Below, piece after piece: positions 1 through 35,693 of a stretch of DNA of 35,693 bases (position 1 is its first letter; every line of letters begins with the position of its first letter). The DNA lies in the UHGV virus genome UHGV-0241471. One strand, 5' to 3'. The translations under genes and the position numbers were made by a program. The DNA comes from a virus. A model generated the notes under the pieces. It searched no databases. It saw nothing but the letters and a program-made list of their open reading frames with translations, and was not told the DNA's origin.

Positions 1-137
1 GCGTTAAATCTAATCAGGCTAGTTTGTTAGTGGCGTGTCTGTCCGCAGCTGGCAAGCGAATGTAAAGACTGACTAAGCATGTAGTGCCGAGGATGTAGGA
101 ATTTCGGACGCGGGTTCAACTCCCGCCAGCTCCACCA
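1..137 (+). ncRNA. ssrA: tmRNA (SsrA) 3' portion, ending in CCA at 135-137; gene continues upstream of the window
   Basis: Recognised from memory of enterobacterial ssrA 3' end (…GTCCGCAGCTGGCAAGCGAATGTAAAGACTGACTAAGCATGTAG…GGACGCGGGTTCAACTCCCGCCAGCTCCACCA); T-arm-like hairpin and CCA end visible. Confidence 0.9.
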
Positions 138-139
138 AA
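93..139. repeat. Prophage attL core: 47-bp direct repeat identical to 35124-35170 (phage-supplied 3' end restoring ssrA)
   Basis: Exact 47/47 match between 93-139 and 35124-35170 by direct comparison; flanks diverge immediately outside. Confidence 0.85.
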
Positions 140-245: not shown

Positions 246-1019
246 TTACAACTTAAAGAGTTTTGCTTGCCCTGGATTAACAGCTTCGACGTAGTTTTTG
301 ACCCCTATTCTGTGCGGCTCATAATTGCTTGAATAGAAATCAATCAGGAAGTCACTCATTTTCTGAGATGTGACTTTCATAACTCCCTTACTCAAAGTTA
401 AATTAAACACGCTAATCTTTGACGATGGTGCCTGAGTTTTACTCATGTTGGCTTGATAACCAGATTTACGCATTGCCACTAGTGCTTCGTCGTAAGCCGC
501 TTGTAATTGGGCCAAATCGTTTGACGAGATGATCACATCATCCATAAACACACTTAGCTTGAGATCATGATGTTTGTTCAATCGGCGTAGTAAGCTACCA
601 AAATAACTTTTATCTAAGCAGAGGGTTGCAAGTATTGGAGATTGAACAAAACCAAAAGGGAGGACATGCTTATGTGGACTATGGGACAAGTTTCTTACAG
701 TTGAAAATGTTGAGATTTCCCGCGCTTGAGAATAGGTGAAGTAGCTCTTTAGATCACGGGTGATACGACTACGGCTCGTTGACTGAAAAAATTGTTTAAT
801 ATCAACAACGGCAAAAAAATCACTTTTTAAGTGTAATCTGGCAGCTTTAAGATGCCCACCAGTTCTTAGATGGTAAAAATAGAGTGGCGGAATCCACTTG
901 TTTCTGACAGCCTGAAGTATCTTCCCTCCGACTTTACGTGCCTCAACGCTTGGGACATAAACCCAAACCCCGGGCTTAATCTCAAATTTATCTTCCCACC
1001 TTTGAACTTCTATTGTCAT
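246..1019 (-). CDS. Compact reverse transcriptase (257 aa), retron/defence-associated RT-like; palm motifs present, catalytic box FMDD
   Basis: Translation shows motif A VVDIKQFFQS (res 71-80), motif B' LPFGFVQSPILATL (120-133), motif C FMDD (158-161, nt 537-548); N-terminal VYVPSVEARKVGGKIL and H-x3-D-F spacing resemble retron-type RTs as recalled. In-frame TAA two codons upstream of the ATG; no obvious SD. Confidence 0.8.
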   Translation of the reverse strand: MTIEVQRWEDKFEIKPGVWVYVPSVEARKVGGKILQAVRNKWIPPLYFYHLRTGGHLKAARLHLKSDFFAVVDIKQFFQSTSRSRITRDLKSYFTYSQAREISTFSTVRNLSHSPHKHVLPFGFVQSPILATLCLDKSYFGSLLRRLNKHHDLKLSVFMDDVIISSNDLAQLQAAYDEALVAMRKSGYQANMSKTQAPSSKISVFNLTLSKGVMKVTSQKMSDFLIDFYSSNYEPHRIGVKNYVEAVNPGQAKLFKL

Positions 1020-1161
1020 GAGTTAAATTGTTGTAGTTGAAGGCCATGTTAAGAACGGCGTAAACCGCACCAACTAAGCCAACAAACGCGGTTGCGCATT
1101 TGAGCATAGCGGTGATCAGTTCAACACGCGCCTTAACTAAGCCAAGTTCGTTTGTATCCAT
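988..1161 (-). CDS. Small hydrophobic protein (57 aa from second ATG; one predicted TM helix), overlaps RT start in another frame
   Basis: ORF with GGAGG 8 nt upstream of ATG at 1161; hydrophobic stretch LITAMLKCATAFVGLVGAVYAVLNMAF; 3' end overlaps RT ATG by 32 nt. Confidence 0.4.
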   Translation of the reverse strand: MDTNELGLVKARVELITAMLKCATAFVGLVGAVYAVLNMAFNYNNLTHDNRSSKVGR

Positions 1162-1179
1162 AACTTGTTCCTCCATAGA

Positions 1180-1422: not shown

Positions 1423-1641
1423 TTAAATCGGCAAACCCACCTGTTTAAATTTATGAGGATGCGGCTGAACCGGATTTGACTCTTTTGGCGTTGCAATCGA
1501 ACGAACAAAAGTTTCATGGGTAACAAAAGTATGGCTGCAGTTAATGTTCTGGCACTGGTTGTAACGCTCTTTGGTCAATGAAGATACCTGAAAACTGCTG
1601 CGAGTATGGGCGGCACTTCCACACAGTGGGCAAATCATCAT
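1423..1641 (-). CDS. ogr: Ogr/Delta-type zinc-finger late transcription activator (72 aa from internal MM start)
   Basis: MMICPLCGSAAHTRSS…KERYNQCQNINCSHTF matches the Ogr C4 zinc-finger pattern; GGGGAGA SD before ATG at 1641; the longer upstream ORF extension is unlikely. Confidence 0.85.
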   Translation of the reverse strand: MMICPLCGSAAHTRSSFQVSSLTKERYNQCQNINCSHTFVTHETFVRSIATPKESNPVQPHPHKFKQVGLPI

Positions 1642-1730
1642 TTTCGAGTTCTCCCCATTTTTGCTAAATTCACAATAATGATACCGAATTATTCCATTTT
1701 GAAAACTTAAAAGTTCTCCATTGCGAAGAA

Positions 1731-2831
1731 TCATTCCATTTCGAAATCATCAATCTTCACTTCAAGCTCCAGACTGGTCGTAAAACCGTTATCCGGGCTG
1801 ACAGTATGCGTCAGGGTGGTAATAGTCCATTCCGCATCATCTATCTGCTGTTTAAAGCCACTGACTTTCACTGGCATTTCCGTGTAGAGATCTGCCCGCC
1901 CTTCCGCCAGTTGTAGCGAGAATGACGCAACGCCGCGTTGCAGGCGTTCCCACTGCATTTTCGCCGCTCGTTCGGCGTTGCTCCGGTTGGCATAAGTGCG
2001 ATTAAGTACCAGCACGTTTTCATCCGTACCCACCAGGTAATCGCCCTGCTTCGCTTCCGGCTCTTTCTTCTGCTTCTTAGTTCTGCGCTTACGCTTCACC
2101 GTGGTGCTTTCTTTCTTCGCAGGTTCACGGGTATGCAACCAGCTGGCAATTACGCCCGTGTAGGCTCCGCGATCTGCCAGGGTAAAGCGGTGACTGTCGC
2201 CGTCCTTGCGTGTGATAGTGATCACTGGCAGTGGTTTACCAGTGGCGCTTTTGCCCTGCCCCTGCCGGATGAATAACAGATTGCCATTTTTCACCGACGC
2301 GATGGCACCGTACTGTCGCGCCAGTCGCATCAGAAAACTGCCGTCACTCTCATTAGTCTGGTCTATATGCTCCACGGGCTTATCCGACAGCTCTTTACCC
2401 AGTGCCATCTTCAGCTTGTGCCGCGCGGCTATTTCCTTCACCACTTCCCCGATGGTGGTGTTATGCCACGATTTTTCACGGCGGGTATTCAGGGTTTCCC
2501 GAAAATCAGCACTTCGCGCCCGGATAGTCAGGCGGTCCGGTGCGCCAGTGTGTTCAATCTCGTCCACCGTGAATGCCCCTTTCGGGAAAAGCGGCTGCCC
2601 CTTCCAGCCCAGCGCCAGCGTAATGACCGCACCACGGCGCGGCAGCACGATTTTTCCATCGGCGTCGTCCAGCTCCAGATCAAGCTGGTCCGCTTCAAAT
2701 CCCCGGTTATCCGTCAGCGTCAGCCCCATCAGGCGGTTGTCCAGCACAGTGGTGATATCCCTGCCTTCAATACTGATGCTGAATGCCGGAGTTTTGTTGC
2801 CTTTGTTAAGCAGTTCAGAGCTGAAATTCAC
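1731..2831 (-). CDS. Tail protein, P2 gpD-like
   Basis: 366-aa ORF in conserved P2 position between U and ogr; N-terminus typical of gpD family as recalled. Confidence 0.8.
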   Translation of the reverse strand: MNFSSELLNKGNKTPAFSISIEGRDITTVLDNRLMGLTLTDNRGFEADQLDLELDDADGKIVLPRRGAVITLALGWKGQPLFPKGAFTVDEIEHTGAPDRLTIRARSADFRETLNTRREKSWHNTTIGEVVKEIAARHKLKMALGKELSDKPVEHIDQTNESDGSFLMRLARQYGAIASVKNGNLLFIRQGQGKSATGKPLPVITITRKDGDSHRFTLADRGAYTGVIASWLHTREPAKKESTTVKRKRRTKKQKKEPEAKQGDYLVGTDENVLVLNRTYANRSNAERAAKMQWERLQRGVASFSLQLAEGRADLYTEMPVKVSGFKQQIDDAEWTITTLTHTVSPDNGFTTSLELEVKIDDFEME

Positions 2832-20709: not shown

Positions 20710-22476
20710 ATGAACACCACACTGACACCCGCAGATCTCGATCCCCGTCGGCAGGCCATGCTGCTGTACTTTCAGGGATACCGCGTAGCCCGCATTGCTG
20801 AAATGCTGGGCGAGAAAGTTGCAACCGTTCACAGCTGGAAAAAACGCGACAAGTGGGGTGACTATGGGCCGCTGGACCAGATGCAGCTCACCACCGCCGC
20901 ACGCTACTGCCAGCTCATCATGAAGGAGCACAAAGAAGGGAAAGATTTCAAAGAGATTGACCTGCTGGCGCGCCAGTCGGAACGCCACGCGCGGATCGGC
21001 AAGTTTAACAATGGCGGCAACGAAGCCGACTTAAACCCTAACGTCGCCAACCGTAACAAAGGCCCGCGCCGTCAGCCGGAAAAGAATGTTTTCACCGATG
21101 AGCAGATTGAGAAGCTGGAAGAAATCTTCCATTCCTCCATGTTCAACTACCAGCGCCACTGGTGGGAAGCCGGAAAAACCAACCGCATCCGGAACCTGCT
21201 GAAGTCACGCCAGATCGGCGCGACCTTTTACTTTGCCCGTGAAGCCCTGATTGACGCCCTGCTTACCGGACGTAACCAGATTTTCCTTTCCGCCAGCAAG
21301 GCACAGGCCCACGTCTTTAAGCAGTACATCATCGACTTCGCCAAAGAAGTGGAGGTGGAGTTGAAAGGCGATCCGATGGTGCTTCCTAACGGGGCCACGC
21401 TTTACTTCCTCGGCACCAATGCCCGCACGGCCCAGAGTTATCACGGCAACCTGTATCTGGATGAATATTTCTGGATACCGAAATTCCAGGAGCTGCGCAA
21501 AGTGGCTTCCGGTATGGCTATTCACAAAAAATGGCGACAAACCTATTTTTCCACGCCATCCAGCCTGACACACAGTGCTTATCCGTTCTGGTCCGGTGCG
21601 CTGTTCAACCGTGGGCGCAACAAGGCCGACAAGGTGGACATCGACCTGTCCCACAGCAATCTGGCCCCCGGTCTGCTGTGCGCAGACGGGCAATACCGCC
21701 AGATAGTCACCGTGGAAGATGCGGTGCGCGGCGGCTGTAACCTGTTCGACCTTGACCAGTTGCGCATGGAGTACAGCCCGGACGAATACCAGAACCTGCT
21801 GATGTGCGAGTTTGTGGACGATCTCGCGTCCGTGTTCCCGCTCAGCGAGCTGCAGGCGTGCATGGTGGACAGTTGGGAAGTCTGGACCGACTTTCATGCT
21901 CTGGCCCTGCGCCCGTTTGGCTGGCGCGAAGTGTGGATCGGTTATGACCCGGCAAAAGGTACGCAAAACGGCGACAGCGCCGGGTGCGTGGTGGTGGCTC
22001 CGCCAGCCGTGCCGGGCGGTAAGTTCCGCATTCTTGAGCGTCACCAGTGGCGCGGGATGGACTTCCGTGCCCAGGCGGACGCCATCAAAAAACTGACTGA
22101 ACAGTACAACGTGACCTATATCGGTATCGACTCGACAGGTGTCGGTCACGGGGTTTATGAGAACGTAAAAGCGTTCTTTCCTGCCGTCCGGGAGTTTGTC
22201 TACAACCCCAACGTTAAAAACGCCCTGGTACTCAAGGCCTACGACATTATCAGCCACCGCCGTCTGGAGTTTGACGCCGGGCACACCGACATTGCGCAGT
22301 CCTTTATGGCAATCCGTCGCGCCACCACCGCCAGCGGCAACCGCCCAACCTATGAAGCCAGCCGCAGCGAAGAAGCCAGCCATGCCGATCTGGCCTGGGC
22401 AACAATGCACGCACTGTTTAACGAACCGCTGCAGGGCGAATCCGCCAATACCAGCAATATTGTGGAGATTTTTTGA
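20710..22476 (+). CDS. Terminase large (ATPase) subunit, P2 gpP-like
   Basis: 588-aa ORF; deviant Walker A SRQIGAT and Walker B LYLDEY seen in translation. Confidence 0.9.
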   Translation: MNTTLTPADLDPRRQAMLLYFQGYRVARIAEMLGEKVATVHSWKKRDKWGDYGPLDQMQLTTAARYCQLIMKEHKEGKDFKEIDLLARQSERHARIGKFNNGGNEADLNPNVANRNKGPRRQPEKNVFTDEQIEKLEEIFHSSMFNYQRHWWEAGKTNRIRNLLKSRQIGATFYFAREALIDALLTGRNQIFLSASKAQAHVFKQYIIDFAKEVEVELKGDPMVLPNGATLYFLGTNARTAQSYHGNLYLDEYFWIPKFQELRKVASGMAIHKKWRQTYFSTPSSLTHSAYPFWSGALFNRGRNKADKVDIDLSHSNLAPGLLCADGQYRQIVTVEDAVRGGCNLFDLDQLRMEYSPDEYQNLLMCEFVDDLASVFPLSELQACMVDSWEVWTDFHALALRPFGWREVWIGYDPAKGTQNGDSAGCVVVAPPAVPGGKFRILERHQWRGMDFRAQADAIKKLTEQYNVTYIGIDSTGVGHGVYENVKAFFPAVREFVYNPNVKNALVLKAYDIISHRRLEFDAGHTDIAQSFMAIRRATTASGNRPTYEASRSEEASHADLAWATMHALFNEPLQGESANTSNIVEIF

Positions 22477-23201
22477 TGCCCCCAATCCCAACTAACCTCA
22501 TGACTATCGCGGGACTTCCGGTGGATAGCTCTTTCTTTGCTTACCAGTATGAGTGGAACACTAGCCCAAAGAGTAGAAACCGTGTACTCACAAAAATGCG
22601 CCAGGCAGGCGCGAATTTCTTTTTTTCCTATGAAGCCCTGAACGATGCACTGCATACCGGGCGTAACCAGATTTTCCTCTGCTGCAGCACAGCATCTGCC
22701 CTGACAGTCAAAACCTATATGTCAGCCTTTATAGATCAGGCCGCAACCTGGACACACCTTGGGAAAATAAAATCAGGTAAAGCGCATCTGGAACTACCTA
22801 ACGGTGCGGTCATTTATTTTATCGGGCCGAAAAGTCTCGCCGCCGCGCTCCATGGAAACGTCTATGTGTCAGAGTATGCCTGGGCGGACTCCCCGAAAAA
22901 TATGATTGCGCTCGCCAAAAGCCTGTCCATGCACGCGCGCTATCACGCTACCTACTACACCACCCCAAGCCCCAGCCCGGAAGCATGGCGGGAATACAAG
23001 AAGCTGATTGCCCGCAACAGCACAACCAGCATGATTTTTACCGCTGATGACGCTGCAGCATCCGGGGCAACGCTCGCAACCGGAGCCGCGCTCTTTGATG
23101 ATGAATGGCTTAATGACATGAAAAAAGAGTTATCAGCAGAGGACTGGAAAATGCTGTTTATGTGCGAATGGCCCCAGACTGACAAGGAGCAGGCGGCATG
23201 A
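22476..23201 (+). CDS. Truncated, divergent terminase-ATPase-domain paralogue inserted between terminase and portal
   Basis: 241 aa; by-eye alignment to gpP residues about 125-345 (e.g. ALNDALHTGRNQIFL vs ALIDALLTGRNQIFL; TYYTTPSPS vs TYFSTPSSL; LFMCEW vs LLMCEF); TGATG overlap with P stop and ATGA overlap with Q start. Confidence 0.6.
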   Translation: MPPIPTNLMTIAGLPVDSSFFAYQYEWNTSPKSRNRVLTKMRQAGANFFFSYEALNDALHTGRNQIFLCCSTASALTVKTYMSAFIDQAATWTHLGKIKSGKAHLELPNGAVIYFIGPKSLAAALHGNVYVSEYAWADSPKNMIALAKSLSMHARYHATYYTTPSPSPEAWREYKKLIARNSTTSMIFTADDAAASGATLATGAALFDDEWLNDMKKELSAEDWKMLFMCEWPQTDKEQAA

Positions 23202-24238
23202 GCAAACGTAAAAACAAGAATAACCGCGCAGCAGTAGATCACAACCCAAATTCAGGCGGTGCTGCGGCAGAGGCGTTCAGCTTTGGCGACCCGGTGCCGG
23301 TGTTAGACCGACGCGAATTGCTGGACTACGTGGAATGCGTGCAGATGGATCGCTGGTATGAACCGCCGGTGAGCTTTGACGGACTGGCGCGGACCTATCG
23401 CGCCGCCGTGCATCACAGCTCACCGATTGCCGTTAAGCGTGACATTCTCAGCAGTACCTATATCCCGCACCGCCTGCTCAGCCAGCAGGCTTTTGCCCGT
23501 TTCGTCCAGGATTATCTGGTGTTCGGTAACGCCTATCTGGAAAAGCGCACCAACCGGCTCGGCAGCGTTCTCTCGCTGGAGCCAGCACTGGCGAAGTACA
23601 CACGGCGCGGCGTGGATCTCGACACCTACTGGTTTGTGCAGTATGGCATGACCACGCAGCCCTATGAATTTACGCAGGGCAACATCTTTCATCTGCTGGA
23701 ACCGGATATTAATCAGGAGATTTACGGGCTGCCCGGCTATCTCTCCGCCATCCCGTCAACCCTGCTCAACGAGTCAGCAACGCTGTTTCGCCGGAAGTAT
23801 TACATCAACGGCAGCCACGCGGGTTTCATCATGTACATGACCGACGCAGCACAGAATCAGGAGGACGTGAACAATATCCGCCAGGCAATGAAAAGCGCCA
23901 AAGGGCCGGGCAACTTCCGCAACCTGTTTATGTATTCGCCCAACGGTAAAAAGGACGGCATCCAGATAATCCCGTTGTCGGAAGTTGCGGCAAAGGATGA
24001 ATTTCTGAACATCAAGAACGTGAGCCGTGATGACATGATGGCTGCTCACCGCGTGCCGCCGCAGATGATGGGCATCATTCCCAACAATACCGGCGGCTTT
24101 GGTGATGTGGAAAAGGCCAGCCGCGTCTTTGTCCGCAACGAGCTGATGCCGCTGCAGAAGCGACTGCAGGAGCTTAACGACTGGCTGGGCGAAGAAGTGA
24201 TCCGCTTTGAGCCCTACACCTTAGATATTGAAAACTAA
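23198..24238 (+). CDS. Portal protein, P2 gpQ-like
   Basis: 346-aa ORF, conserved position next to terminase. Confidence 0.9.
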   Translation: MSKRKNKNNRAAVDHNPNSGGAAAEAFSFGDPVPVLDRRELLDYVECVQMDRWYEPPVSFDGLARTYRAAVHHSSPIAVKRDILSSTYIPHRLLSQQAFARFVQDYLVFGNAYLEKRTNRLGSVLSLEPALAKYTRRGVDLDTYWFVQYGMTTQPYEFTQGNIFHLLEPDINQEIYGLPGYLSAIPSTLLNESATLFRRKYYINGSHAGFIMYMTDAAQNQEDVNNIRQAMKSAKGPGNFRNLFMYSPNGKKDGIQIIPLSEVAAKDEFLNIKNVSRDDMMAAHRVPPQMMGIIPNNTGGFGDVEKASRVFVRNELMPLQKRLQELNDWLGEEVIRFEPYTLDIEN

Positions 24239-24272: not shown

Positions 24273-25706
24273 TCATTCAATACTATCTAGACGACTAACA
24301 TTCATTTTATTGAGAAAGTCTCTATTAAAACCGAAATGATACCAGTTACTAGTATTTCGCTGGGCCTCACCCTCTGTCAGCTTTTGAGCCAAAAGTTTAC
24401 TGTCATCGATTCCGGTAATAACTGCAATACTCTTGAATCCTCTATGCTGTATTGCTCTTGTAAATAGAGGATATTTCTCATAGTGCCCGGAATACAACAA
24501 CATTTGCGGGTACCAAAAAATACCGGGATTAATGAAGGATATCATAAGAGCAACAAGATCAGCTTGTTTCAAATCATCGAAAGACACATCATCTCTAGTT
24601 GCACTTTGCTTTACTAACTCAGCAACAGGGGAATACAGTCGATAGTTTTCAGGGGACAATTTACTTTGAAGGTAATCAGAGCTTAAATATAACTCACTGT
24701 AATTAGCAAACTCCATTCCCGGACTGGTTATATGATCGGGTAGCAAATAAGATGTATGCAGTAATGTATGTACATGCTGGAAAGCTTCAATTTTTATTAA
24801 AGCCGCCAAAATATATAAAAACGTTTCATACGCAAAAATCTGATGGGGCAAAAACCATATTTCATTATATGAATTTACATTTTTCGGACGATTTCTAATC
24901 GCTAACATTACTTCCATAAACTGTAATAGTGCTTTGGAAAAGTCTTCGCCCTGCGTATCACCCTCAAGTAAAACCCAGTCTGTAATGGCATCCCTAACGG
25001 CAATAAGCTCTTTATGAATTTGCAAAACTTCCGCTGCAAAATCTTCAGTAGTTGGGTTTGTTACGACTTGTAGTGAGATACAATAATTTCGGCACACCTC
25101 TAAAAATTGCCTTCTGCAATCCTTTAATGTCTGCTTTTGATTTAAGACAGCTGATTTTAAAGTTTGAAATTTTGCATGAATTTCATACGTCGGTTTTGAC
25201 GTGTCTTGCTCTAAATAAACCGGAGGCTTACCTAATGGTGGCTTAGTAAATTCTGGTTTTCCATAAAGCAACCTGATTAAACGTTCCCAATTATCATTTT
25301 CTTTTTCTGGTGTTGAAAAATCAATATAGATTCTAGACTTCAGAAAGATTGGAGTATACGGCTCTCCATTATCTTTGTACTCAAATATTAATGGTATAAA
25401 TTTGGACTGCGACACGGATGAATATATTTCCTGGGAAATTATCATCGACTCAACACCGACACCATCTTTTCTTAAATCGGCTTTTTCTGAGTATTTTTTA
25501 TCACAAATGACTAAAACATGCGTAACCGTTTCATCTTGAACCATTCTTTCCATGTAATAATTTTTATCATCCCCTTCTTTCAAGTCATAAATATCTATGA
25601 CAGTTTCAACTCCATCTGCCGCCAATCGTTCAGCCATATCTTTGATATGTTGCTGATGAGTTTTACTTGACCAACTATAGGATATAAAAACTTTTGGCTG
25701 GATCAT
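24273..25706 (-). CDS. SEFIR/TIR-like domain protein (477 aa), candidate standalone anti-phage effector
   Basis: N-terminus KVFISYSWSS…IDIYD…FIPLIFEY fits the SEFIR/TIR pattern as recalled; about 300-aa helical C-terminal domain of unknown type; GGGAGG SD; visibly AT-rich versus flanks. Confidence 0.6.
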   Translation of the reverse strand: MIQPKVFISYSWSSKTHQQHIKDMAERLAADGVETVIDIYDLKEGDDKNYYMERMVQDETVTHVLVICDKKYSEKADLRKDGVGVESMIISQEIYSSVSQSKFIPLIFEYKDNGEPYTPIFLKSRIYIDFSTPEKENDNWERLIRLLYGKPEFTKPPLGKPPVYLEQDTSKPTYEIHAKFQTLKSAVLNQKQTLKDCRRQFLEVCRNYCISLQVVTNPTTEDFAAEVLQIHKELIAVRDAITDWVLLEGDTQGEDFSKALLQFMEVMLAIRNRPKNVNSYNEIWFLPHQIFAYETFLYILAALIKIEAFQHVHTLLHTSYLLPDHITSPGMEFANYSELYLSSDYLQSKLSPENYRLYSPVAELVKQSATRDDVSFDDLKQADLVALMISFINPGIFWYPQMLLYSGHYEKYPLFTRAIQHRGFKSIAVITGIDDSKLLAQKLTEGEAQRNTSNWYHFGFNRDFLNKMNVSRLDSIE

Positions 25707-26008: not shown

Positions 26009-26242
26009 TTAATGCAGCCAGCTGTCGTCTTCCCACACCTTCTGCATAATTTCCATTACCCGCTGCTTATCCTCATCAAGTTTTAAGCCGGTCAACTCGA
26101 TACCGTTGGCACTGCCTTTGCGAATGCGGATCGCCGTCTTGGGATACAGGGGGCGCAGATTGCGGTAAAGCTCGGATTCAAGGGCGTCCAGGGTAGACTG
26201 GCTAATCTTCTGCTCTTTATCGATCATTATTTCAATGCGCAT
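26009..26242 (-). CDS. DinI-family protein (77 aa from MRIEIMIDKEQK)
   Basis: MRIE…DALESELYRNL…DKQRVMEIMQKVWEDDSW resembles DinI; GAGGTGA SD before ATG at 26242. Confidence 0.7.
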   Translation of the reverse strand: MRIEIMIDKEQKISQSTLDALESELYRNLRPLYPKTAIRIRKGSANGIELTGLKLDEDKQRVMEIMQKVWEDDSWLH

Positions 26243-26252
26243 AAAAGTCACC

Positions 26253-26441
26253 TCAGCTGATGACATCCATTGAGCGGTTGTATTCGTGAGTTCTGATTTT
26301 TGCCATGAGTTCATCTGTCAGTTCAGAAACCCACTGCAAAGCCAGCCCCTTCTCTTCATCACTACACTCACTAGCCGCTACAAGCTTAAGAAAAAAATCA
26401 ATGCGCTGGAGCTTCAAAGACTCCAAAAAATAGTCCTGCAT
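26253..26441 (-). CDS. Small protein (62 aa) downstream of a LexA box; possible Tum-like antirepressor N-terminal module
   Basis: AGGAGG SD before ATG at 26441; LexA box about 45 bp upstream; followed directly by DinI-like ORF. Confidence 0.45.
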   Translation of the reverse strand: MQDYFLESLKLQRIDFFLKLVAASECSDEEKGLALQWVSELTDELMAKIRTHEYNRSMDVIS

Positions 26442-26594: not shown

Positions 26595-29009
26595 TTAATA
26601 CAGGTTTCGCCACTTATCATCTTCCTGCAAACGCTGGTTCCGACAGAAGATACGCAGGCCTGCTCCTGACGGAATACTGCCACCGCGAAGGAGCAGATCG
26701 ACCTCTTTCTCGCTGCCATCAAATCCTCTTGACTTCAGTTCATAGACGAGCTGCTGTCGCTGATGGTCTGTAATTCGCTGTTTGTAGTCTTTACGCCGTT
26801 TCGGTTTCACCAGGCGTAACCTTGCAGCCAGTTCCCGGCGCTCTTTTTTGCTCATACTGTGCAGGTAATCGTGCAACTCCTTGTCATCCATGCGGGTAAT
26901 GTCCGTCCTGGTATCCCCATCAGCTGATTTGTCTTTCCCTTGTTGGTTCAAATTTTCAGCAAGGGGACAGTTATTGCCACGAGTCCAAGGGGCGCAAGCG
27001 CCCTGGTCGGCTGCCGCCTCCTGAACGTCAACGGCCTTACGAACCATTTTCCACTTCACGGCATGAGTGCAGATCTTGCCCTCTGCAATAGGTGACCAGA
27101 TGCCATAAATACGAATGCCGTGATCGCCATAGGCGGTCGGCTCTTCGTTGATTTCATAAGCAGTTCTGATGAGGTGATATTTACGGGGAACCAGTACGCC
27201 GCCCTGCTTCATGATGTAGGTGGCAAAACAACCAGCATCAGCAGCAGCCAGGATTGCATCAAGGCGCGGGTTATCCAGTACCGGCGCACCTGCTTTTTTG
27301 TCACCCTGTTGCCTTGCCGCCTGACCAGCCAGCAATCGCAGTTCACGGTAAGCCTGACGCCCCGGAATGCCAAAGAAGCGGAATTGCTGAACACGATGCA
27401 GAGACGCCCAGGCATTCACGTATTCAGCGTTATCACGCAGGGATTTACCCGTTTCCTTGCTGATCTCGCCAGCCAGACCACGCCCGTCAATGTTCTTACT
27501 GATATATTTCGCGATGTAGCTTGTCGGCGTTCCTTTGCGCGGGTTAATCAACTCAGACTTAAAGCGTGGTCCCGTGTTATTCCCCAGCTCCTCGCGGTCT
27601 TCACGAATGGCAAACTTACGCAACAAAGCAGTAATGGCGCGGCGATCTTTTTTGCGCATAAAACACAACAGGTGCCAGTGAACTGTACCGTCATGATGCG
27701 GCTCAGCCACCCGCACGCCATACCAGCGCAATCCGGCTTTGTGCATCGCCTTACGAAATGCAGCAAACATGCCAACCAGATAATCACTGCTTTGTCTTAC
27801 CGTCGCATTTGTCCAGGTCGGGTTGGGCCTGCCGTTATTTAGCGTGGAATGGAAACGTGACGGACAGGTGATGGTGTAGAAAACGGCGCAGTCACCGCGC
27901 ATTTCCGCGATAAGCTCCAGGCCTTTAACACAGGCCATCATCTCATTGCGGCGATGCGCAGGGTTGCTGCTGCTGGCGTTTACCACATCCTCCATGTCCA
28001 GCGTGTCGCCGTCTTCGTTCACCAGTTCATGAGAACGGAAAAACTCCAGCGACTTACGGCGCTGCTCACGTTTATGCATCACGGCTTCATAGCTGACATA
28101 GGGAGATGCTTTTTTGCTGACCAGACAGACAGCACGCAACTGCTCTTCCCGCCATTCGCAACGCATCTTCCATAATTTCCGATACCACCAGTCGGCGCAC
28201 AGCATACGCGCCAGCGAACCCGGAATGAGTTCATAGGGCACAGGTTTGCGGCGGTTTCTTTTCCGGCGGAGTTGCTCAAACGCAGGCGGTATGACATCCA
28301 GTCGCAGGGTTTCTGCTGCCACCTTTTCCCATGTCTTGCGGATTTCTTCCGGCTTAACATCATCGGAGGCGTACAAATCACCACAAGCGGCATCAAGACA
28401 CATGCTCATATGCGCAGCGACAAGGGTGGACAGGCGTTTCACCTGATCCTGACTCATTTCAGGCAGGCTCAGCAGACCGTCCAGCCCTTCATGGCTTGCC
28501 ATAAAACGAAAAGATGCAGATAGCTGGCTGTCGCGTACATGCTCCAGTCGTTCCAGGCATGGCTTAATCGTCTCACGCAAATAGCGGGAATAAGCCTTTG
28601 GCCTGCCCAGGTTGCTGAAGTATTTAATACGTTGCATCAGCGGCTTGCTGATATGGGAAGGCTGGGCGTTGACATCCGCCAGAATGACCATGTCTGGATT
28701 AAAACGCTGCTGCTCATGCGCCAGCTTTGCCCGGCTAATTAGCTTATCCTGCTCCATTTCGCGCTGGACAGGATCACGGGATTCATTAAAGAAATAACGC
28801 TCCCAGACCTGATCACTCAGTGCCTCGCGGCGCAGTTGTTCCTGCTCGTTATCGGCAGCGTACAGAGTGATCAGGTTTGAAAGCGCAGAAACCGGCGCAA
28901 CTTCCGCCGGGTCCAGATAAGGGTTAATGGCCTTTTTCGGGCTGTTCCATGAGAATGCTGCGGCAGCCTCGTTAAAGCCGCAGCAGTTGTTCATATCGGC
29001 ATGGCTCAT
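26595..29009 (-). CDS. Rolling-circle replication initiator, P2 gpA-like
   Basis: HuH-like VHWHLL and active-site tyrosine pair SYIAKYISK seen in the 804-aa translation; start codon uncertain. Confidence 0.85.
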
Positions 29010-29863
29010 GCACGTACTCCGTACACGGCAGAACTGTCCACGCCACGCGAATAATCAAATCCCACCCAGCAGCGCGGCCCGGAAACAGCAATGATTTCTG
29101 TTGCTGATTTACCCTCTCCAGCTGCCACACCGATGTTGCGTTTTGCCTTGATGTAGTGGTGAGTAAAATTGCGATACAGCGAACGGATCAGGGATGTGTC
29201 ACTGTTAGAAACAATGACCGGATGTCCTTCTGATGACCGATGTTCAAGAACGGATGCCAGGTGATACTGGTCATCTTCAGTGAAGCCGTCAGTGTGATAA
29301 CCGGAAAACGTGCCGTCATACGGCGGATCGCAATACACCACATCCCCCGCCTTCAACATCGCCAGCGTTTCATCAAAGCTGGCGCAGATAAACGTTGCCC
29401 GCTGGGCTTTTTCTGCAAATGCGCGAATTTCTTTTTCAGGGAAATACGGATTTTTATAATTACCGTAGGGAATGTTGAAATGCCCGCTCTTGTTATAGCG
29501 ACATAAACCACGGTAACCGTGACGATTGAGATACAGGAAATATACCGCTTTCATGAAATCAGTAATTTCAGTGGAGTAATTAAACTCCTGCCTTATGTTG
29601 TAATAAGCCACCTCCCTGTTTGCGATCTCAAATAAAACTCTGGCGCGAGATATAAACGATTCACAATCAGCGGCAACCTTTTTATAGAGGTTGATTAAAT
29701 CAGGATTAATATCCGCAACCAGATAGCTGGGGTAATCCGTCTCCATCATCACAGCACAGGAACCCGCGAAAGGTTCAACCAGTCGCGGGCCAGCAGGAAG
29801 GTGTTTTTTCAGTTCGGACATAATGGCGGTTTTATTTCCCGCCCATTTCAGGATGGTGCTCAT
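29006..29863 (-). CDS. DNA N6-adenine methyltransferase (Dam family), orphan
   Basis: DPPY motif ([10 protein letters not shown]) and N-terminal AdoMet-binding region; strong GGAGG SD before ATG at 29863; no adjacent restriction gene. Confidence 0.85.
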
Positions 29864-30087
29864 ACAGCACCTCCGTTGTAATGTTTGCCTTTCAGCTCTG
29901 CGATTTCCTGACAGGTAATGCAAAGCTGCACACCTGGAATGGCGCGGCGGCGTGCTGGCGGAATTGGCGCTTCACACTCAATGCAAAGCACGCGGGACAC
30001 GCCCGGCGTTTTGGCACGGGCAGCACGAATATGGCGCTGGCGTTCTTCTTCAACGCGCTGCTGTACAAGATCCATTGCATCAGCCAT
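29860..30087 (-). CDS. TraR/DksA-family C4 zinc-finger protein
   Basis: CIECEAPIPPARRRAIPGVQLCITCQ four-cysteine motif. Confidence 0.7.
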   Translation of the reverse strand: MADAMDLVQQRVEEERQRHIRAARAKTPGVSRVLCIECEAPIPPARRRAIPGVQLCITCQEIAELKGKHYNGGAV

Positions 30088-31793: not shown

Positions 31794-31810
31794 GTCAACA
31801 GGATTGAAAA

Positions 31811-32443
31811 ATGATACAAGTAAAAGCTGGCGAGAATACAGGGGGAAGAGAGGCTATCCATAGGCTAATGGCAGCCTATGATTTCAAGTCCAGACAGCAA
31901 CTTTGCGATCACTTGGGCGCATCAAAAAGCACTATGGCAAACAGATACTTAAGAGATAGTTTTCCTGCAGAATGGGTGATTCAGTGCGCTTTGGAAACAG
32001 GAGTTTCTTTACTGTGGCTAACTACCGGACAGGGCGATCCAGGTTCAAACATTGACCCTAAAAAAAATATCAATTCCGTGAACTCTAGCAAAGTTAAACC
32101 TCTTTCGGAGCTTGTATCTCCTGAAATTGACAAGGCAACTCTCAACGGAGGTTTGCTGATCGATGCTGGAAAAGCAATCATTGATAGCAGCATACTCCCC
32201 TCAGACTCAAGCAACCTGCTGCTGGTGACTACTTCTGGTGATTCTTATTTAATAGATCGCAACCAAACACCACCAGTAAATGGTACGTGGTTAGTGGACA
32301 TCGACGGGATAAAAAGCATTGTAAAATTGACACGACTCCCGGGAAACAGATTAGTAGTGCATCAGGATGATTCATCGTTTGAGTGCGAACTGGATGACAT
32401 TGAGGTAATAGGCCGCGCACTGAAAATCATTAAGAGCCTTTGA
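31811..32443 (+). CDS. CI-type immunity repressor (210 aa)
   Basis: N-terminal HTH, position immediately upstream of int and divergent from apl; AGGA SD. Confidence 0.8.
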   Translation: MIQVKAGENTGGREAIHRLMAAYDFKSRQQLCDHLGASKSTMANRYLRDSFPAEWVIQCALETGVSLLWLTTGQGDPGSNIDPKKNINSVNSSKVKPLSELVSPEIDKATLNGGLLIDAGKAIIDSSILPSDSSNLLLVTTSGDSYLIDRNQTPPVNGTWLVDIDGIKSIVKLTRLPGNRLVVHQDDSSFECELDDIEVIGRALKIIKSL

Positions 32444-32444
32444 T

Positions 32445-33458
32445 ATGACCATCAGAAAACAGCCGAACGGAAAGTGGTTATGTGAATGCTACCCAAACGG
32501 GCGAGATGGCAAACGCGTACGCAAACAATTTGCGACGAAAGGCGAAGCCATTGCGTTTGAGAATTTCACCATGGACGAGGTAAACAAGAAACCTTGGCTG
32601 GGAGAAAAGGAAGATCGGCGACACCTATCAGAATTAATTGAGCTGTGGTATTCCCTGTATGGTCAAACACTCGCAGACCCCAAGCGACTCATGGCGAAAC
32701 TTGGAATTATCTGTAATGGTCTGGGCGATCCCATCGCTTCAGAGCTGACTGCCGGTGACTTTACGAAATACCGCGAAGCACGGCTAAAAGGTGAAGTGCG
32801 AAATGAAGATGGCACGCTGATGTCGCCCGTTAAGCCCCGCACGGTAAACCTTGAACAGCGCAATCTATCATCTGTGTTCGGTACATTAAAAAAACTAGGA
32901 CACTGGTCAGCACCAAACCCGCTGGCAGGACTTCCGACCTTCAAAATTGCCGAAGGTGAGCTGGCTTTTCTTTCCACGGACGAAATCAAGCGCCTGTTGG
33001 CGGCATGTGCTGAATCTCAAAGCCCTAGCTTACTAATGATTGCAAAAATATGCCTGGCTACTGGCGCACGGTGGAGTGAAGCCGAAAATCTGCAGGGCCA
33101 TCAAATATCGAAATACCGAATTACTTATACAAAAACAAAAGGCAAGAAAAACCGTACTGTGCCGATATCTCAGGATCTGTATGATGAACTCCCCAAAAAC
33201 AGAGGAAAGTTATTCACGCCATGCAGAAAAGCCTTTGAGCGGGCAGTAAAGCGGGCCGGTATTGACCTACCGGAGGGCCAATGCACCCACGTGCTTCGCC
33301 ATACATTCGCCAGTCACTTTATGATGAACGGCGGAAACATACTGGTACTGCGTGATATTTTGGGTCATGCCGATATAAAAATGACCATGATTTACGCCCA
33401 CTTTTCGCCCGATCACCTTGAAGACGCGGTGACTAAAAATCCTCTTTATAATTTGTAG
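32445..33458 (+). CDS. int: Tyrosine integrase (P2/186 Int family)
   Basis: C-terminal catalytic signature HVLRHTFAS … HADIKMTMIYAHF; start overlaps cI stop. Confidence 0.9.
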   Translation: MTIRKQPNGKWLCECYPNGRDGKRVRKQFATKGEAIAFENFTMDEVNKKPWLGEKEDRRHLSELIELWYSLYGQTLADPKRLMAKLGIICNGLGDPIASELTAGDFTKYREARLKGEVRNEDGTLMSPVKPRTVNLEQRNLSSVFGTLKKLGHWSAPNPLAGLPTFKIAEGELAFLSTDEIKRLLAACAESQSPSLLMIAKICLATGARWSEAENLQGHQISKYRITYTKTKGKKNRTVPISQDLYDELPKNRGKLFTPCRKAFERAVKRAGIDLPEGQCTHVLRHTFASHFMMNGGNILVLRDILGHADIKMTMIYAHFSPDHLEDAVTKNPLYNL

Positions 33459-33470
33459 TGGAGACCTATT

Positions 33471-34991
33471 GTGATTCAAAAATTAGATATTCAATCTGAT
33501 GCGGTTGCAAAGTTAAGAATGGATGCTATTCGTTCAGAAATCCAAGGTTATTCCCCTGATTTATTTATCGAATTCTGTATGCAATATAACTTACAAAAAT
33601 TTGAAGATAATATCCACATGTTACGACACATGCCTTGGATTGTTAATTTATGTCTAAAGTGGTCTGCGTCAGTAACTGGCAAGAATAAAAAATTCAAAAT
33701 CCTCGATAAAAATCAAGCAATAAAACTCTTCCAAAAAACTTATGAAACCTTGAACATTATTCCTATCGGTCTTGAGAGGAAGAATGGCATGCATTTCTTC
33801 ATTAGAAATAATCTATACCAACAAGGAATCTACCAGAAAATTGACGCTCTAAACACAATTAGCAGACAAGTCTTTCTATTTTCAGAACTTGAAAAAAACC
33901 ATAAAATAAAGACAAGTTTTTTTACTATCACGAATGTATCTATCGAAGACTTTCTTAAGCTATCTTACATATTAATAACTCACATAACAGAAGAGCATCC
34001 CGTGAGAAAAATGAATGTAGATACATTTACTATATTATTTGACATCATTCCTAGAAATACCATTGAGAAATTTCTTGATGCAATATCAATAAATTACAAT
34101 GAACTATCTACATTTTGCAAATCAAAAACCTATGATAAACCTTTGCTTGAATACTACTCATCATCACCTTTTCTTGAAAAACCATTAATAAAAAAAGGTT
34201 CAGAGTATTTTCAGATACACACACAACTGACTTCAACAAGCATACAGACGTTCATATATGATCTTTTAAGAAGAACTGATGCCGAGAAGTTCATGGATAG
34301 CTTTGGAAATGTATTTGAAAATGCACTGGAATTAATACTAAAAGAAAGCGAAATTGATTTTCATAACGAAAAATACCTTAAAGAACGACTACCTAAAGAT
34401 AATAAAGTAGTTGATTATTTCATTCCACATACTGAGGCAAATATTTTCATTGATGCTAAAGGCGTTGAGATACACCAAAAAGGCATGGTAACATTACGCC
34501 CTGAGGATATTGCAGGAAAAATAAAGAAATCGGTATTAAAAGCAATCGAACAATCTCACGAAGTTAATCGAGAAATATACTCTAATGAGCGAATAATAGC
34601 TCCATTCAGGGCTAACTCATATATCATTTGCATTACATATAAAAACCTTTTCTTAGGCAATGGTAGTATCCTAGCTAATACTTATGCTAAAGATGAGATG
34701 AATAAGATATATGACAAGTTTAAACATAACTATCATATCCCTACAGAGAATATTTTTTGTCTATCATTTGAAGAGTTTGAATATCTCATTGCATCATGCA
34801 AAAGGTTTAAAATTCCGCCTCATGAAGTCTTGCAATCTGCAGTTGAAAAGAACAAAAAACCATCAAGTGCTGCTTTCCTATTTTCCCACCATATAGAAGA
34901 CTATTTTGATAGAGTAGTCAATTCAGTCATAGTCAATGAGGCAGGCATTAAAATGGTAGATTCTATTATCAATAAATTAAAGCCTGAATAA
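33471..34991 (+). CDS. AT-rich cargo protein (506 aa) with PD-(D/E)xK-like nuclease motif; candidate defence or abortive-infection gene
   Basis: GTG start with GGAG SD 8 nt upstream; motif VVDYFIPHTEANIFIDAKGVE (D … D-A-K) about residues 330-350; composition markedly more AT-rich than the phage backbone. Confidence 0.6.
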   Translation: MIQKLDIQSDAVAKLRMDAIRSEIQGYSPDLFIEFCMQYNLQKFEDNIHMLRHMPWIVNLCLKWSASVTGKNKKFKILDKNQAIKLFQKTYETLNIIPIGLERKNGMHFFIRNNLYQQGIYQKIDALNTISRQVFLFSELEKNHKIKTSFFTITNVSIEDFLKLSYILITHITEEHPVRKMNVDTFTILFDIIPRNTIEKFLDAISINYNELSTFCKSKTYDKPLLEYYSSSPFLEKPLIKKGSEYFQIHTQLTSTSIQTFIYDLLRRTDAEKFMDSFGNVFENALELILKESEIDFHNEKYLKERLPKDNKVVDYFIPHTEANIFIDAKGVEIHQKGMVTLRPEDIAGKIKKSVLKAIEQSHEVNREIYSNERIIAPFRANSYIICITYKNLFLGNGSILANTYAKDEMNKIYDKFKHNYHIPTENIFCLSFEEFEYLIASCKRFKIPPHEVLQSAVEKNKKPSSAAFLFSHHIEDYFDRVVNSVIVNEAGIKMVDSIINKLKPE

Positions 34992-35010
34992 GTCTCCCAA
35001 GCAAAACCAG

Positions 35011-35029
35011 TGGCGGCATTTTGGCGGCA
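35011..35029. promoter_or_regulatory. Candidate Int arm-type sites at attR (two GGCGGCA repeats, 11-bp period)
   Basis: Matches the attL-side repeat block at 183-210. Confidence 0.4.
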
Positions 35030-35123
35030 GAGCATTAAAAATGCGTAAAACAGACAAACACAAAATAATACTAACACACTGATTTTAAACATAAGTTCAT
35101 GTTTTTGTTATAGTAAAAATGGT

Positions 35124-35170
35124 ATGTAGGAATTTCGGACGCGGGTTCAACTCCCGCCAGCTCCACCAAA
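35124..35170. repeat. Prophage attR core: displaced native 3' 47 nt of ssrA
   Basis: Identical to 93-139; followed by a different (chromosomal) downstream sequence and terminator. Confidence 0.85.
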
Positions 35171-35215
35171 ATTCTCCATCGGTGATTACCAGAGTCATCC
35201 GATGTAGTCCTAAGA

Positions 35216-35247
35216 GCCCGCACGGCGCAAGCCCTGCGGGCTTTTTT
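35216..35247 (+). terminator. Intrinsic terminator (native ssrA terminator displaced by integration)
   Basis: Stem GCCCGCA / TGCGGGC with 12-nt loop followed by TTTTTT. Confidence 0.6.
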
Positions 35248-35438
35248 GTGCCCTCAATTTGCCCCACGACGTCCGAAGAGAACTCATTAAATCCGCACCT
35301 TTTAGGCCCATTGATGGGCCCAACGAAAAGCTCTGTTGTTTTCGCGTTACCAATTACCCGGCAACCCATCCCTCTCAGAATTAGACCACCAACGACACCT
35401 TTCACCCTCCGGCCGCGTCCGCGGCCGGAGGGATAGAT

Positions 35439-35687
35439 TTACCCCTTGTGAGAATACGCGTCCAGCATGGCAAGGACCGCCCGACGCGCCGCATCGTCTG
35501 CGATATTGTCAGGCAGCGCATCAGCCCGCAGATTGACATAAGCGTCAGCAGTCCTTCGAATGGCAATCCCGACGGAGTGACGATCGTGTGTTGCCAGAGT
35601 GGAAGTCAGCAGGCCATCGGGATCAATGCCGAGGGCTTCTATTCGACGAACGCCGCGTTGCGGTAGATTGGCGCGACGAAACAGCAT
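35439..35687 (-). CDS. Chromosomal ORF, C-terminal fragment of unknown protein (continues beyond window)
   Basis: Open frame runs to the window edge; a GC-rich palindrome (35405-35432) lies just downstream of its stop. Confidence 0.35.
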   Translation of the reverse strand: MLFRRANLPQRGVRRIEALGIDPDGLLTSTLATHDRHSVGIAIRRTADAYVNLRADALPDNIADDAARRAVLAMLDAYSHKG

Positions 35688-35693
35688 CGGTCC

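What the first reader, a model, noticed from the sequence alone, without database searches (positions are those of the whole stretch)
33471..34991. AT-rich 506-aa cargo gene with a PD-(D/E)xK-like motif at the int-attR junction
This gene starts 13 bp after the integrase stop, uses a GTG start with a GGAG SD, and is strongly AT-rich against the GC-rich backbone. That is the pattern of a recently acquired moron at the classic integrase-att cargo position. The segment VVDYFIPHTEANIFIDAKGVE resembles a restriction-endonuclease-type catalytic core, and no known domain is recognisable elsewhere.
Basis: inference. Interest (0 to 1): 0.6.

Follow-up and report, generated by a model that had tools for sequence, protein, structure and literature searches.

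The report
Prophage-borne GapS1 anti-phage nuclease gene
The AT-rich gene after the integrase is a member of the GapS1 (GAPS1) family, a known one-protein anti-phage defence with a restriction-enzyme-like nuclease domain, so it is a correct but ordinary finding.

Summary

The gene is not unknown. It scores 428 bits (cutoff 320) on NCBIfam NF047931 'antiphage_GapS1'. The identical protein is named 'GapS1 family protein' in RefSeq. It is 58% identical to EJP5250929.1, an E. coli homologue shown experimentally to block coliphages (Mahata et al.). In the founding Vibrio GAPS1, the catalytic D and K are required, the T7 capsid protein is the trigger, and the outcome is dormancy.

The host element is a P2/186-like Klebsiella pneumoniae prophage in ssrA. 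The gene fills a swap-in cassette (33461..35010) between the int stop and the attP arm. That slot is empty or filled differently in relatives and is already described as a minor P2 defence hotspot.

The only new detail is a structural resemblance of the N-terminal domain to Upx. Verdict: already known, low interest.

The parts
33460..33463 (+). GGAG Shine-Dalgarno, 7 nt upstream of the GTG start
   Evidence: Read directly from the sequence.
33471..34991 (+). gapS1 CDS, 506 aa, GTG start; GapS1-family single-protein anti-phage defence
   Evidence: ORF. NCBIfam NF047931 at 428.5 bits against a cutoff of 320, covering the whole 455-position profile. 100% identical to 'MULTISPECIES: GapS1 family protein [Enterobacteriaceae]' and to WP_135661401.1. 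58% identical to the experimentally validated EJP5250929.1.
33471..34256 (+). N-terminal domain (aa 1-262): helical with winged-helix-like elements; putative sensor or nucleic-acid-binding part (function inferred)
34257..34991 (+). C-terminal half (aa 263-506) holding the PD-(D/E)xK nuclease domain, closest to the FokI/BspD6I cleavage domains
34407..34469 (+). Catalytic motif VVDYFIPHTEANIFIDAKGVE (aa 313-333): D315 (34413-34415), D328 (34452-34454), K330 (34458-34460), E333
   Evidence: D315, D328, K330 and E333 are invariant in 25 homologues down to 28% identity. The block 311-335 is the best-conserved part, 80-88% in enteric homologues that are 50-60% identical overall. The D-to-K spacing of 15 equals D313-K328 of Vibrio GAPS1, whose alanine mutants lose defence.
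33461..35010 (+). Swap-in cargo cassette (AT-rich) between the int stop codon and the conserved attP arm
   Evidence: blastn against SEN8, RE2010, Cartapus and ST437-OXA245phi4.1. Homology ends at 33445-33460 and resumes at 35011. Only one ORF of any size lies in the cassette.
32445..33458 (+). Tyrosine integrase (337 aa), immediately upstream on the same strand
   Evidence: Pfam Int_N and Phage_integrase.
31811..32443 (+). 186-type CI repressor (210 aa); cI-int-gapS1 are tightly spaced on one strand, so co-transcription in the lysogen is inferred
   Evidence: Pfam Phage_CI_repr and Phage_CI_C. No terminator-like site between int and gapS1.
35011..35123 (+). Conserved attP arm shared with related phages
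   Evidence: 86-91% identity to SEN8, RE2010, Cartapus and ST437-OXA245phi4.1 from 35011 onward.
35124..35170 (+). attR core: displaced 3' end of ssrA (tmRNA)
   Evidence: Perfect 47-nt direct repeat of 93-139. Rfam tmRNA 3' end.
93..139 (+). attL core: 3' end of the reconstituted ssrA gene
   Evidence: Direct repeat. Rfam tmRNA at 49.1 bits, above the gathering score, at 100-137.
35229..35253 (+). Terminator-like hairpin plus T-run downstream of attR (native ssrA terminator); first + strand terminator after gapS1
   Evidence: Terminator scan.

Best explanation
The gene encodes a GapS1 (GAPS1) family protein, a self-contained single-polypeptide anti-phage defence. It sits as a swap-in cassette between the integrase stop codon and the attP arm of a P2/186-like (Peduoviridae) Klebsiella pneumoniae prophage integrated in ssrA. 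Shown here: family membership, the PD-(D/E)xK fold with an intact invariant catalytic motif (E283, D315, D328-x-K330), the single-gene cassette with fixed boundaries, and its accessory, foreign-composition status. Taken from published work on homologues (Mahata et al., bioRxiv 10.1101/2023.03.28.534373): the family protects against diverse coliphages; the catalytic D and K are required; T7 escapes by mutations in its major capsid protein Gp10; co-expression of Gp10 with GAPS1 causes reversible growth arrest (dormancy) rather than death. Inferred for this copy: it is transcribed with cI and int in the lysogen. Its N-terminal helical/winged-helix half keeps the FokI-like nuclease half inactive until it senses a superinfecting phage's capsid protein. 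The nuclease then cuts a nucleic acid target that is still unknown, halting growth and phage replication. This protects the lysogen population and so the prophage itself.
Against: No experiment exists on this exact allele; the closest tested homologue is 58% identical. The trigger (capsid) and the outcome (dormancy) were established for the Vibrio protein, which is only about 24-29% identical to enteric homologues, so trigger specificity here is unknown. The nucleic acid target of the family is unknown. I could not align the Vibrio GAPS1 sequence directly, so the equivalence D315=D313 and K330=K328 rests on spacing and invariance. Co-transcription with cI-int is inferred only from spacing and the absence of a predicted terminator. 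The promoter scan is uninformative: 11 sites found against 9.2 expected. PADLOC-DB 2023 has no model for the family and gave no hit.
Confidence: 0.88

Rival explanations
1. An orphan type IIS-like restriction endonuclease. The N-terminal winged-helix domains would recognise a DNA sequence and the FokI-like domain would cut nearby. It would act constitutively on unmodified incoming DNA rather than being triggered by a phage protein.
Against: The cassette has no methyltransferase; it holds a single ORF. The only methylase-like gene nearby is a backbone Dam homologue that is also present in relatives lacking gapS1. Homologues are not toxic when expressed alone. Defence is escaped by capsid mutations, not by DNA modification.
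Confidence: 0.05
2. A nuclease that serves the prophage's own life cycle, for example host-DNA degradation, a recombination or excision accessory, or superinfection exclusion by another route. It would not be a triggered immune sensor.
Against: The gene is absent from the close relative SEN8 and is replaced by unrelated genes in others, so it is dispensable for the phage cycle. The same family occurs outside prophages, in GMT islands and in distant phyla. Tested homologues give anti-phage defence on a plasmid without any prophage.
Confidence: 0.04
3. An inactive or decaying passenger gene with no current function.
For: Extreme AT-richness and the GTG start could fit poorly expressed foreign DNA.
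Against: The reading frame is intact at full length. All invariant family residues are kept. The identical protein sequence is found on at least 1000 contigs across Enterobacteriaceae, and 99.9%-identical DNA is present in 15 complete E. coli genomes. That pattern indicates recent spread under selection rather than decay.
Confidence: 0.03

Closest known systems
GAPS1 of Vibrio parahaemolyticus VPaI-6 (WP_005477165.1) and the GapS1 family (NCBIfam NF047931; Mahata et al., bioRxiv 10.1101/2023.03.28.534373)
   Same: Single-protein system of about 500 aa. C-terminal PD-(D/E)xK domain with the D...DxK motif and the same D-to-K spacing. Above-threshold match to the family HMM. 58% identical to the validated E. 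coli homologue EJP5250929.1. The paper notes that about 78% of homologues are in K. pneumoniae genomes.
   Different: It is carried in a P2-like prophage int-att cassette rather than in a Gamma-Mobile-Trio island. It is only distantly related in sequence to the Vibrio founder; enteric homologues are 24-29% identical to it. This allele's trigger and phage range are untested.
GAPS1-like protein of Klebsiella prophage ST437-OXA245phi4.1 (QBP08064.1; noted in the Phold paper, PMC12774648)
   Same: Same slot directly after int and before the same ssrA att arm, in a related Klebsiella Peduoviridae prophage. Same family and same motif.
   Different: Only 49% amino-acid identity. The N-terminal half and the C-terminal tail are the most diverged parts: 45% identity in 1-262 and 19% in 471-506, against 84% in the motif block.
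Defence hotspots of P2-like phages (Rousset et al. 2022, PMC9122126; preprint 10.64898/2026.02.27.708500)
   Same: Conserved flanking core genes with interchangeable defence cargo. The 2026 preprint explicitly lists an integrase-att hotspot holding 3% of P2 defence systems. The same prophage also fills the classic gpA-portal hotspot, with bSEFIR.
   Different: This is the minor hotspot, not the main gpA-portal (old/tin) one.
FokI / BspD6I type IIS restriction enzymes
   Different: No sequence similarity (10-14% identity), no methyltransferase partner, and published behaviour of the family is trigger-dependent growth arrest.
Upx single-protein nuclease defence (PDB 9wuf; PMC13099982, PMC13601566)
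   Different: Upx is about 1,270 aa with two nuclease domains and senses terminase. There is no detectable sequence relationship. The structural match is moderate (TM 0.46, E 0.17) and I could not see which Upx region is matched.

Membership tests
GapS1 / GAPS1 anti-phage family | Match to the curated family model NF047931 above its cutoff over the full length | tested here: met
   428.5 bits against a cutoff of 320; residues 20-474 cover profile positions 1-455 of 455.
GapS1 / GAPS1 anti-phage family | C-terminal PD-(D/E)xK phosphodiesterase fold | tested here: met
   [not shown]
GapS1 / GAPS1 anti-phage family | Conserved catalytic D ... (D/E)xK motif | tested here: met
   D315, D328 and K330 (also E283 and E333) are invariant in 25 homologues down to 28% identity. 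The motif block is the most conserved region.
GapS1 / GAPS1 anti-phage family | Residue-by-residue equivalence to the mutated D313 and K328 of WP_005477165.1 | tested here: inconclusive
   The spacing D315-K330 = 15 = D313-K328. The Vibrio sequence could not be retrieved, so no direct alignment was made.
GapS1 / GAPS1 anti-phage family | Single-gene system with no conserved partner gene | tested here: met
   The cassette 33461-35010 holds one ORF of any size. The neighbours are the backbone int gene and att.
GapS1 / GAPS1 anti-phage family | Close relationship to an experimentally validated member | tested here: met
   58% identity over 504 aa to P0063 = EJP5250929.1, which was validated in Mahata et al..
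GapS1 / GAPS1 anti-phage family | Anti-phage activity, capsid-protein trigger, dormancy outcome | not testable with these tools
   These need plaque assays, escape mutants and co-expression assays. They are known only for homologues.
P2-like prophage defence hotspot (int-att) | Conserved flanks with interchangeable cargo among related phages | tested here: met
   Four states share the same junctions: about 29 bp in SEN8, a 401-aa gene in RE2010 and Cartapus, GapS1 allele A here and in E. coli XJW9B263, and GapS1 allele B in ST437-OXA245phi4.1. The hotspot is described in the literature.
Type IIS restriction-modification (FokI-like) | Cognate methyltransferase next to the endonuclease | tested here: not met
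   There is no second gene in the cassette. The Dam-like gene about 4 kb away is a backbone gene that is also present in relatives without gapS1.
Type IIS restriction-modification (FokI-like) | FokI-type cleavage domain fold | tested here: met
   [not shown]
Upx | About 1,200-aa protein with N-terminal and C-terminal nuclease domains joined by a middle domain | tested here: not met
   506 aa with one nuclease domain. No sequence similarity to 9wuf. Only the N-terminal domain shows a moderate structural match.

The most novel reading that the evidence does not exclude
GapS1 may be a 'half-size' structural relative of Upx. Its N-terminal helical/winged-helix domain would share ancestry with part of the Upx sensor scaffold. 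If so, a common superfamily of single-chain PD-(D/E)xK sensors would read phage morphogenesis proteins, capsid for GapS1 and terminase for Upx. The two diverged GapS1 alleles that alternate at the same int-att slot of Klebsiella and E. coli P2-like prophages would then be specificity variants. Each would be tuned to different competitor capsids while sparing the carrier phage's own capsid.
Probability: 0.2. Interest if true: 0.45.

Novelty: already known. Interest (0 to 1): 0.15.

Why it matters
The result confirms that a tool-free reading of sequence can correctly flag a defence moron and its catalytic motif, but it adds little new biology. The family, its nuclease requirement, its capsid trigger, its abundance in Klebsiella, its presence in Peduoviridae prophages and the int-att hotspot are all published or annotated. 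Practically, K. pneumoniae lysogens of this prophage carry GapS1 plus bSEFIR plus a small reverse transcriptase. That is relevant to predicting phage-therapy host range. The exact cassette junctions and the Upx-like N-terminal fold are small additions that could guide domain-swap experiments on trigger specificity.

Tried and rejected
- Pfam, PADLOC-DB 2023 and PDB sequence searches gave nothing significant for the protein. PADLOC 2023 predates the family. The Pfam 'TPD' hit (14.6 bits against a cutoff of 27) and the NCBIfam Maf hit (14 bits against 273) are noise.
- ARAGORN found no tmRNA because only the 3' end is present. Rfam did find it. The long Rfam 'tmRNA' alignment over 34900-35120 is spurious; only the last ~50 nt are real.
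- I tried three routes to the Vibrio GAPS1 sequence for a direct D313/K328 mapping, and none delivered it:
  - The genome-contig scan returned 11 distant loci but no Vibrio.
  - A profile search of the protein collection returned the same set plus one weak hit.
  - The paper's supplements hold only plasmid names and the synthesised homologue DNA.
- The promoter scan around the gene is at background level, 11 sites against 9.2 expected, so no dedicated promoter can be claimed.
- The 401-aa alternative cargo of RE2010 and Cartapus, annotated 'putative RES protein', has no hit in Pfam, PADLOC or NCBIfam. That annotation could not be confirmed.
- I considered a type IIS restriction enzyme, a phage life-cycle nuclease and a decaying gene; all are rejected as set out under the rival explanations.

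Full report
**Observation**

The ORF list shows a 506-aa GTG-started frame at 33471..34991 on the + strand.
- It follows the 337-aa integrase ORF (32445..33458), whose TAG is at 33456-33458.
- GGAG lies at 33460-33463, 7 nt before the GTG.
- The gene has GC 0.314 and GC3 0.276.
- The prophage backbone is at GC 0.532, with GC3 of 0.57-0.70 in gpA, portal and gpD.
- No other 1521-nt stretch of the window is as AT-rich.
- The peptide VVDYFIPHTEANIFIDAKGVE is residues 313-333.

All parts of the observation are confirmed.

**Setting**

A perfect 47-nt direct repeat lies at 93-139 and 35124-35170. It is the 3' end of tmRNA: Rfam gives 49.1 bits at 100-137 and a 3'-end match at 35121-35168. So the window is one prophage integrated in ssrA, with the finding next to attR.

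The element is a P2/186-like (Peduoviridae) phage. It has a CI repressor of the 186 type, cII, Ogr, gpD, gpA and a portal. It is 99.9% identical over 31800-35123 to the Klebsiella pneumoniae phage records Kp4845-2 and relatives.

**What the gene is**

The profile libraries gave the following.
- Pfam, PADLOC-DB 2023 and PDB sequences give nothing.
- PHROG 14259 (unknown function) matches at E 5e-165.
- NCBIfam NF047931 'antiphage_GapS1' matches at 428.5 bits, above its 320-bit cutoff, over the whole profile.

The public annotation agrees.
- The protein is 100% identical to WP_135661401.1 and to 'MULTISPECIES: GapS1 family protein [Enterobacteriaceae]', which is seen on at least 1000 contigs.
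- Fifteen of 5,426 complete E. coli genomes carry 99.9%-identical DNA.
- PGAP annotates that DNA as gapS1. In the one genome examined (XJW9B263) it sits in the same cI-int-gapS1 order next to ypjA.

The family was defined by Mahata et al. (bioRxiv 10.1101/2023.03.28.534373). Their findings, taken from that paper, are:
- GAPS1 of V. parahaemolyticus is a single protein with a C-terminal PD-(D/E)xK domain.
- D313A and K328A abolish defence against T7.
- T7 escapes through mutations in the capsid protein Gp10.
- Gp10 plus GAPS1 causes non-lethal growth arrest.
- About 78% of homologues are in K. pneumoniae.
- Three E. coli homologues, and one native one, protect against coliphages.

One of the tested homologues, EJP5250929.1, is in my hit set as P0063. 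It is 58% identical to the window protein over 504 residues.

**The nuclease motif**

An alignment of 25 homologues down to 28% identity shows invariant E283, E300, D315, D328, K330, E333 and Q361. Block 311-335 is the best-conserved part of the protein. The D315-K330 distance of 15 equals D313-K328 in the Vibrio protein.

AlphaFold2 on this alignment gives pLDDT 88.8 and pTM 0.88. D315 lies at the start of a strand (316-319), D328-A-K330 lies at the end of the next strand (324-330), and E283 lies in the preceding long helix. That is the canonical arrangement.

- then Bse634I, Can2, NgoMIV, McrC, NucC and Shedu

**The N-terminal half**

Modelled alone (aa 1-262), it gives pLDDT 87.9. It is mostly helical.
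- Foldseek independently ranks 9wuf first (prob 0.95, E 0.17, TMq 0.46), with nothing else above prob 0.21.
- There is no sequence-level link, even with a profile.

Upx is a single-chain PD-(D/E)xK defence reported to sense phage terminase (PMC13099982, PMC13601566). The resemblance is moderate. I could not see which Upx residues are matched, so I record it as a lead and not as a relationship.

**The cassette**

blastn of 31800-35693 against related phages shows homology ending at the int stop (33445-33460) and resuming at 35011. Between these junctions:
- SEN8 has about 29 bp and no gene.
- RE2010 and Cartapus have a 1.2-kb insert with a 401-aa protein that matches no library.
- ST437-OXA245phi4.1 has a 516-aa GapS1 allele that is 49% identical. 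The Phold paper already points to it as GAPS1-like.

So 33461..35010 is a single-gene swap-in cassette. [quoted passage not shown] An INPHARED survey lists GAPS1 among phage-borne systems.

**Mechanism**

- Shown here: membership, fold, an intact motif, single-gene status and accessory status.
- From the literature on homologues: defence, nuclease dependence, the capsid trigger and dormancy.
- Inferred: expression from the cI-int transcript, since there are 12 nt after int and no predicted terminator; an autoinhibited N-terminal sensor; and trigger specificity.
- The substrate of the family is unknown.

**Rivals**

- An orphan type IIS enzyme is unlikely. There is no methyltransferase in the cassette, and homologues are escaped by capsid mutations.
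- A life-cycle nuclease is unlikely because relatives lack the gene.
- A decaying gene is unlikely given full conservation and wide recent spread.

**Verdict**

The object is an already named, experimentally characterised defence family in an already described hotspot, and the identical protein is annotated as such in RefSeq. Novelty: already known. Interest is low.

Noticed in passing
window 24273..25706 (- strand): A second AT-rich island (GC 0.35-0.37) encodes a 477-aa bSEFIR defence protein (PADLOC PDLC03957, E 1e-102; Pfam SEFIR and TIR_2). It lies between the portal-like gene (23198..24238) and DinI (26009..26314)/gpA (26595..29009), which is the classic P2 gpA-portal (old/tin) defence hotspot. 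NCBIfam has no model for it.
   Followed up: partly
window 246..1019 (- strand) and 988..1176 (- strand): Next to attL and upstream of ogr (1423..1734) lies a small 257-aa reverse transcriptase. It matches Pfam RVT_1 at E 2e-21 and gives only weak retron-type hits (PADLOC RT_VI 6.6e-18; NCBIfam retron St85 RT at 49 bits against a cutoff of 235). An overlapping 62-aa ORF with a hydrophobic stretch precedes it. No Rfam msr/msd-type RNA was found at 100-1500. In the phage collection the RT occurs only in this Klebsiella phage group (13 records). It is possibly an unclassified RT-based defence on the other side of att.
   Followed up: partly
L001 3635..4840 (Escherichia phage Cartapus) and L004 2635..3840 (Salmonella phage RE2010): The alternative cargo at the same int-att slot is a 401-aa protein, annotated 'putative RES protein, NAD+ binding domain' in Cartapus and 'unknown' in RE2010. 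It has no hit in Pfam, PADLOC or NCBIfam. It is an uncharacterised candidate defence gene.
   Followed up: partly
[not shown]
   Followed up: partly
window 21208-21310 and 22599-22701: A 103-nt direct repeat pair at 75% identity, 1391 nt apart, inside the late-gene region. Not examined.
   Followed up: no
window 29006..29923 (- strand): A 305-aa ORF at the position where relatives annotate a Dam DNA adenine methylase, next to the TraR/DksA-like gene at 29860..30087. It is a backbone gene in relatives that lack gapS1, so it is not a partner of the nuclease. Its identity was not verified by a domain search here.
   Followed up: no
L006-L015 (genome-contig loci): GapS1 homologues at 28-33% identity occur in MAGs of distant lineages: Anammoxibacter, Nitrosomonas, Planctomycetota, Chloroflexota, Cloacimonadota and others. 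This is consistent with wide horizontal spread. Their neighbourhoods were not examined.
   Followed up: no
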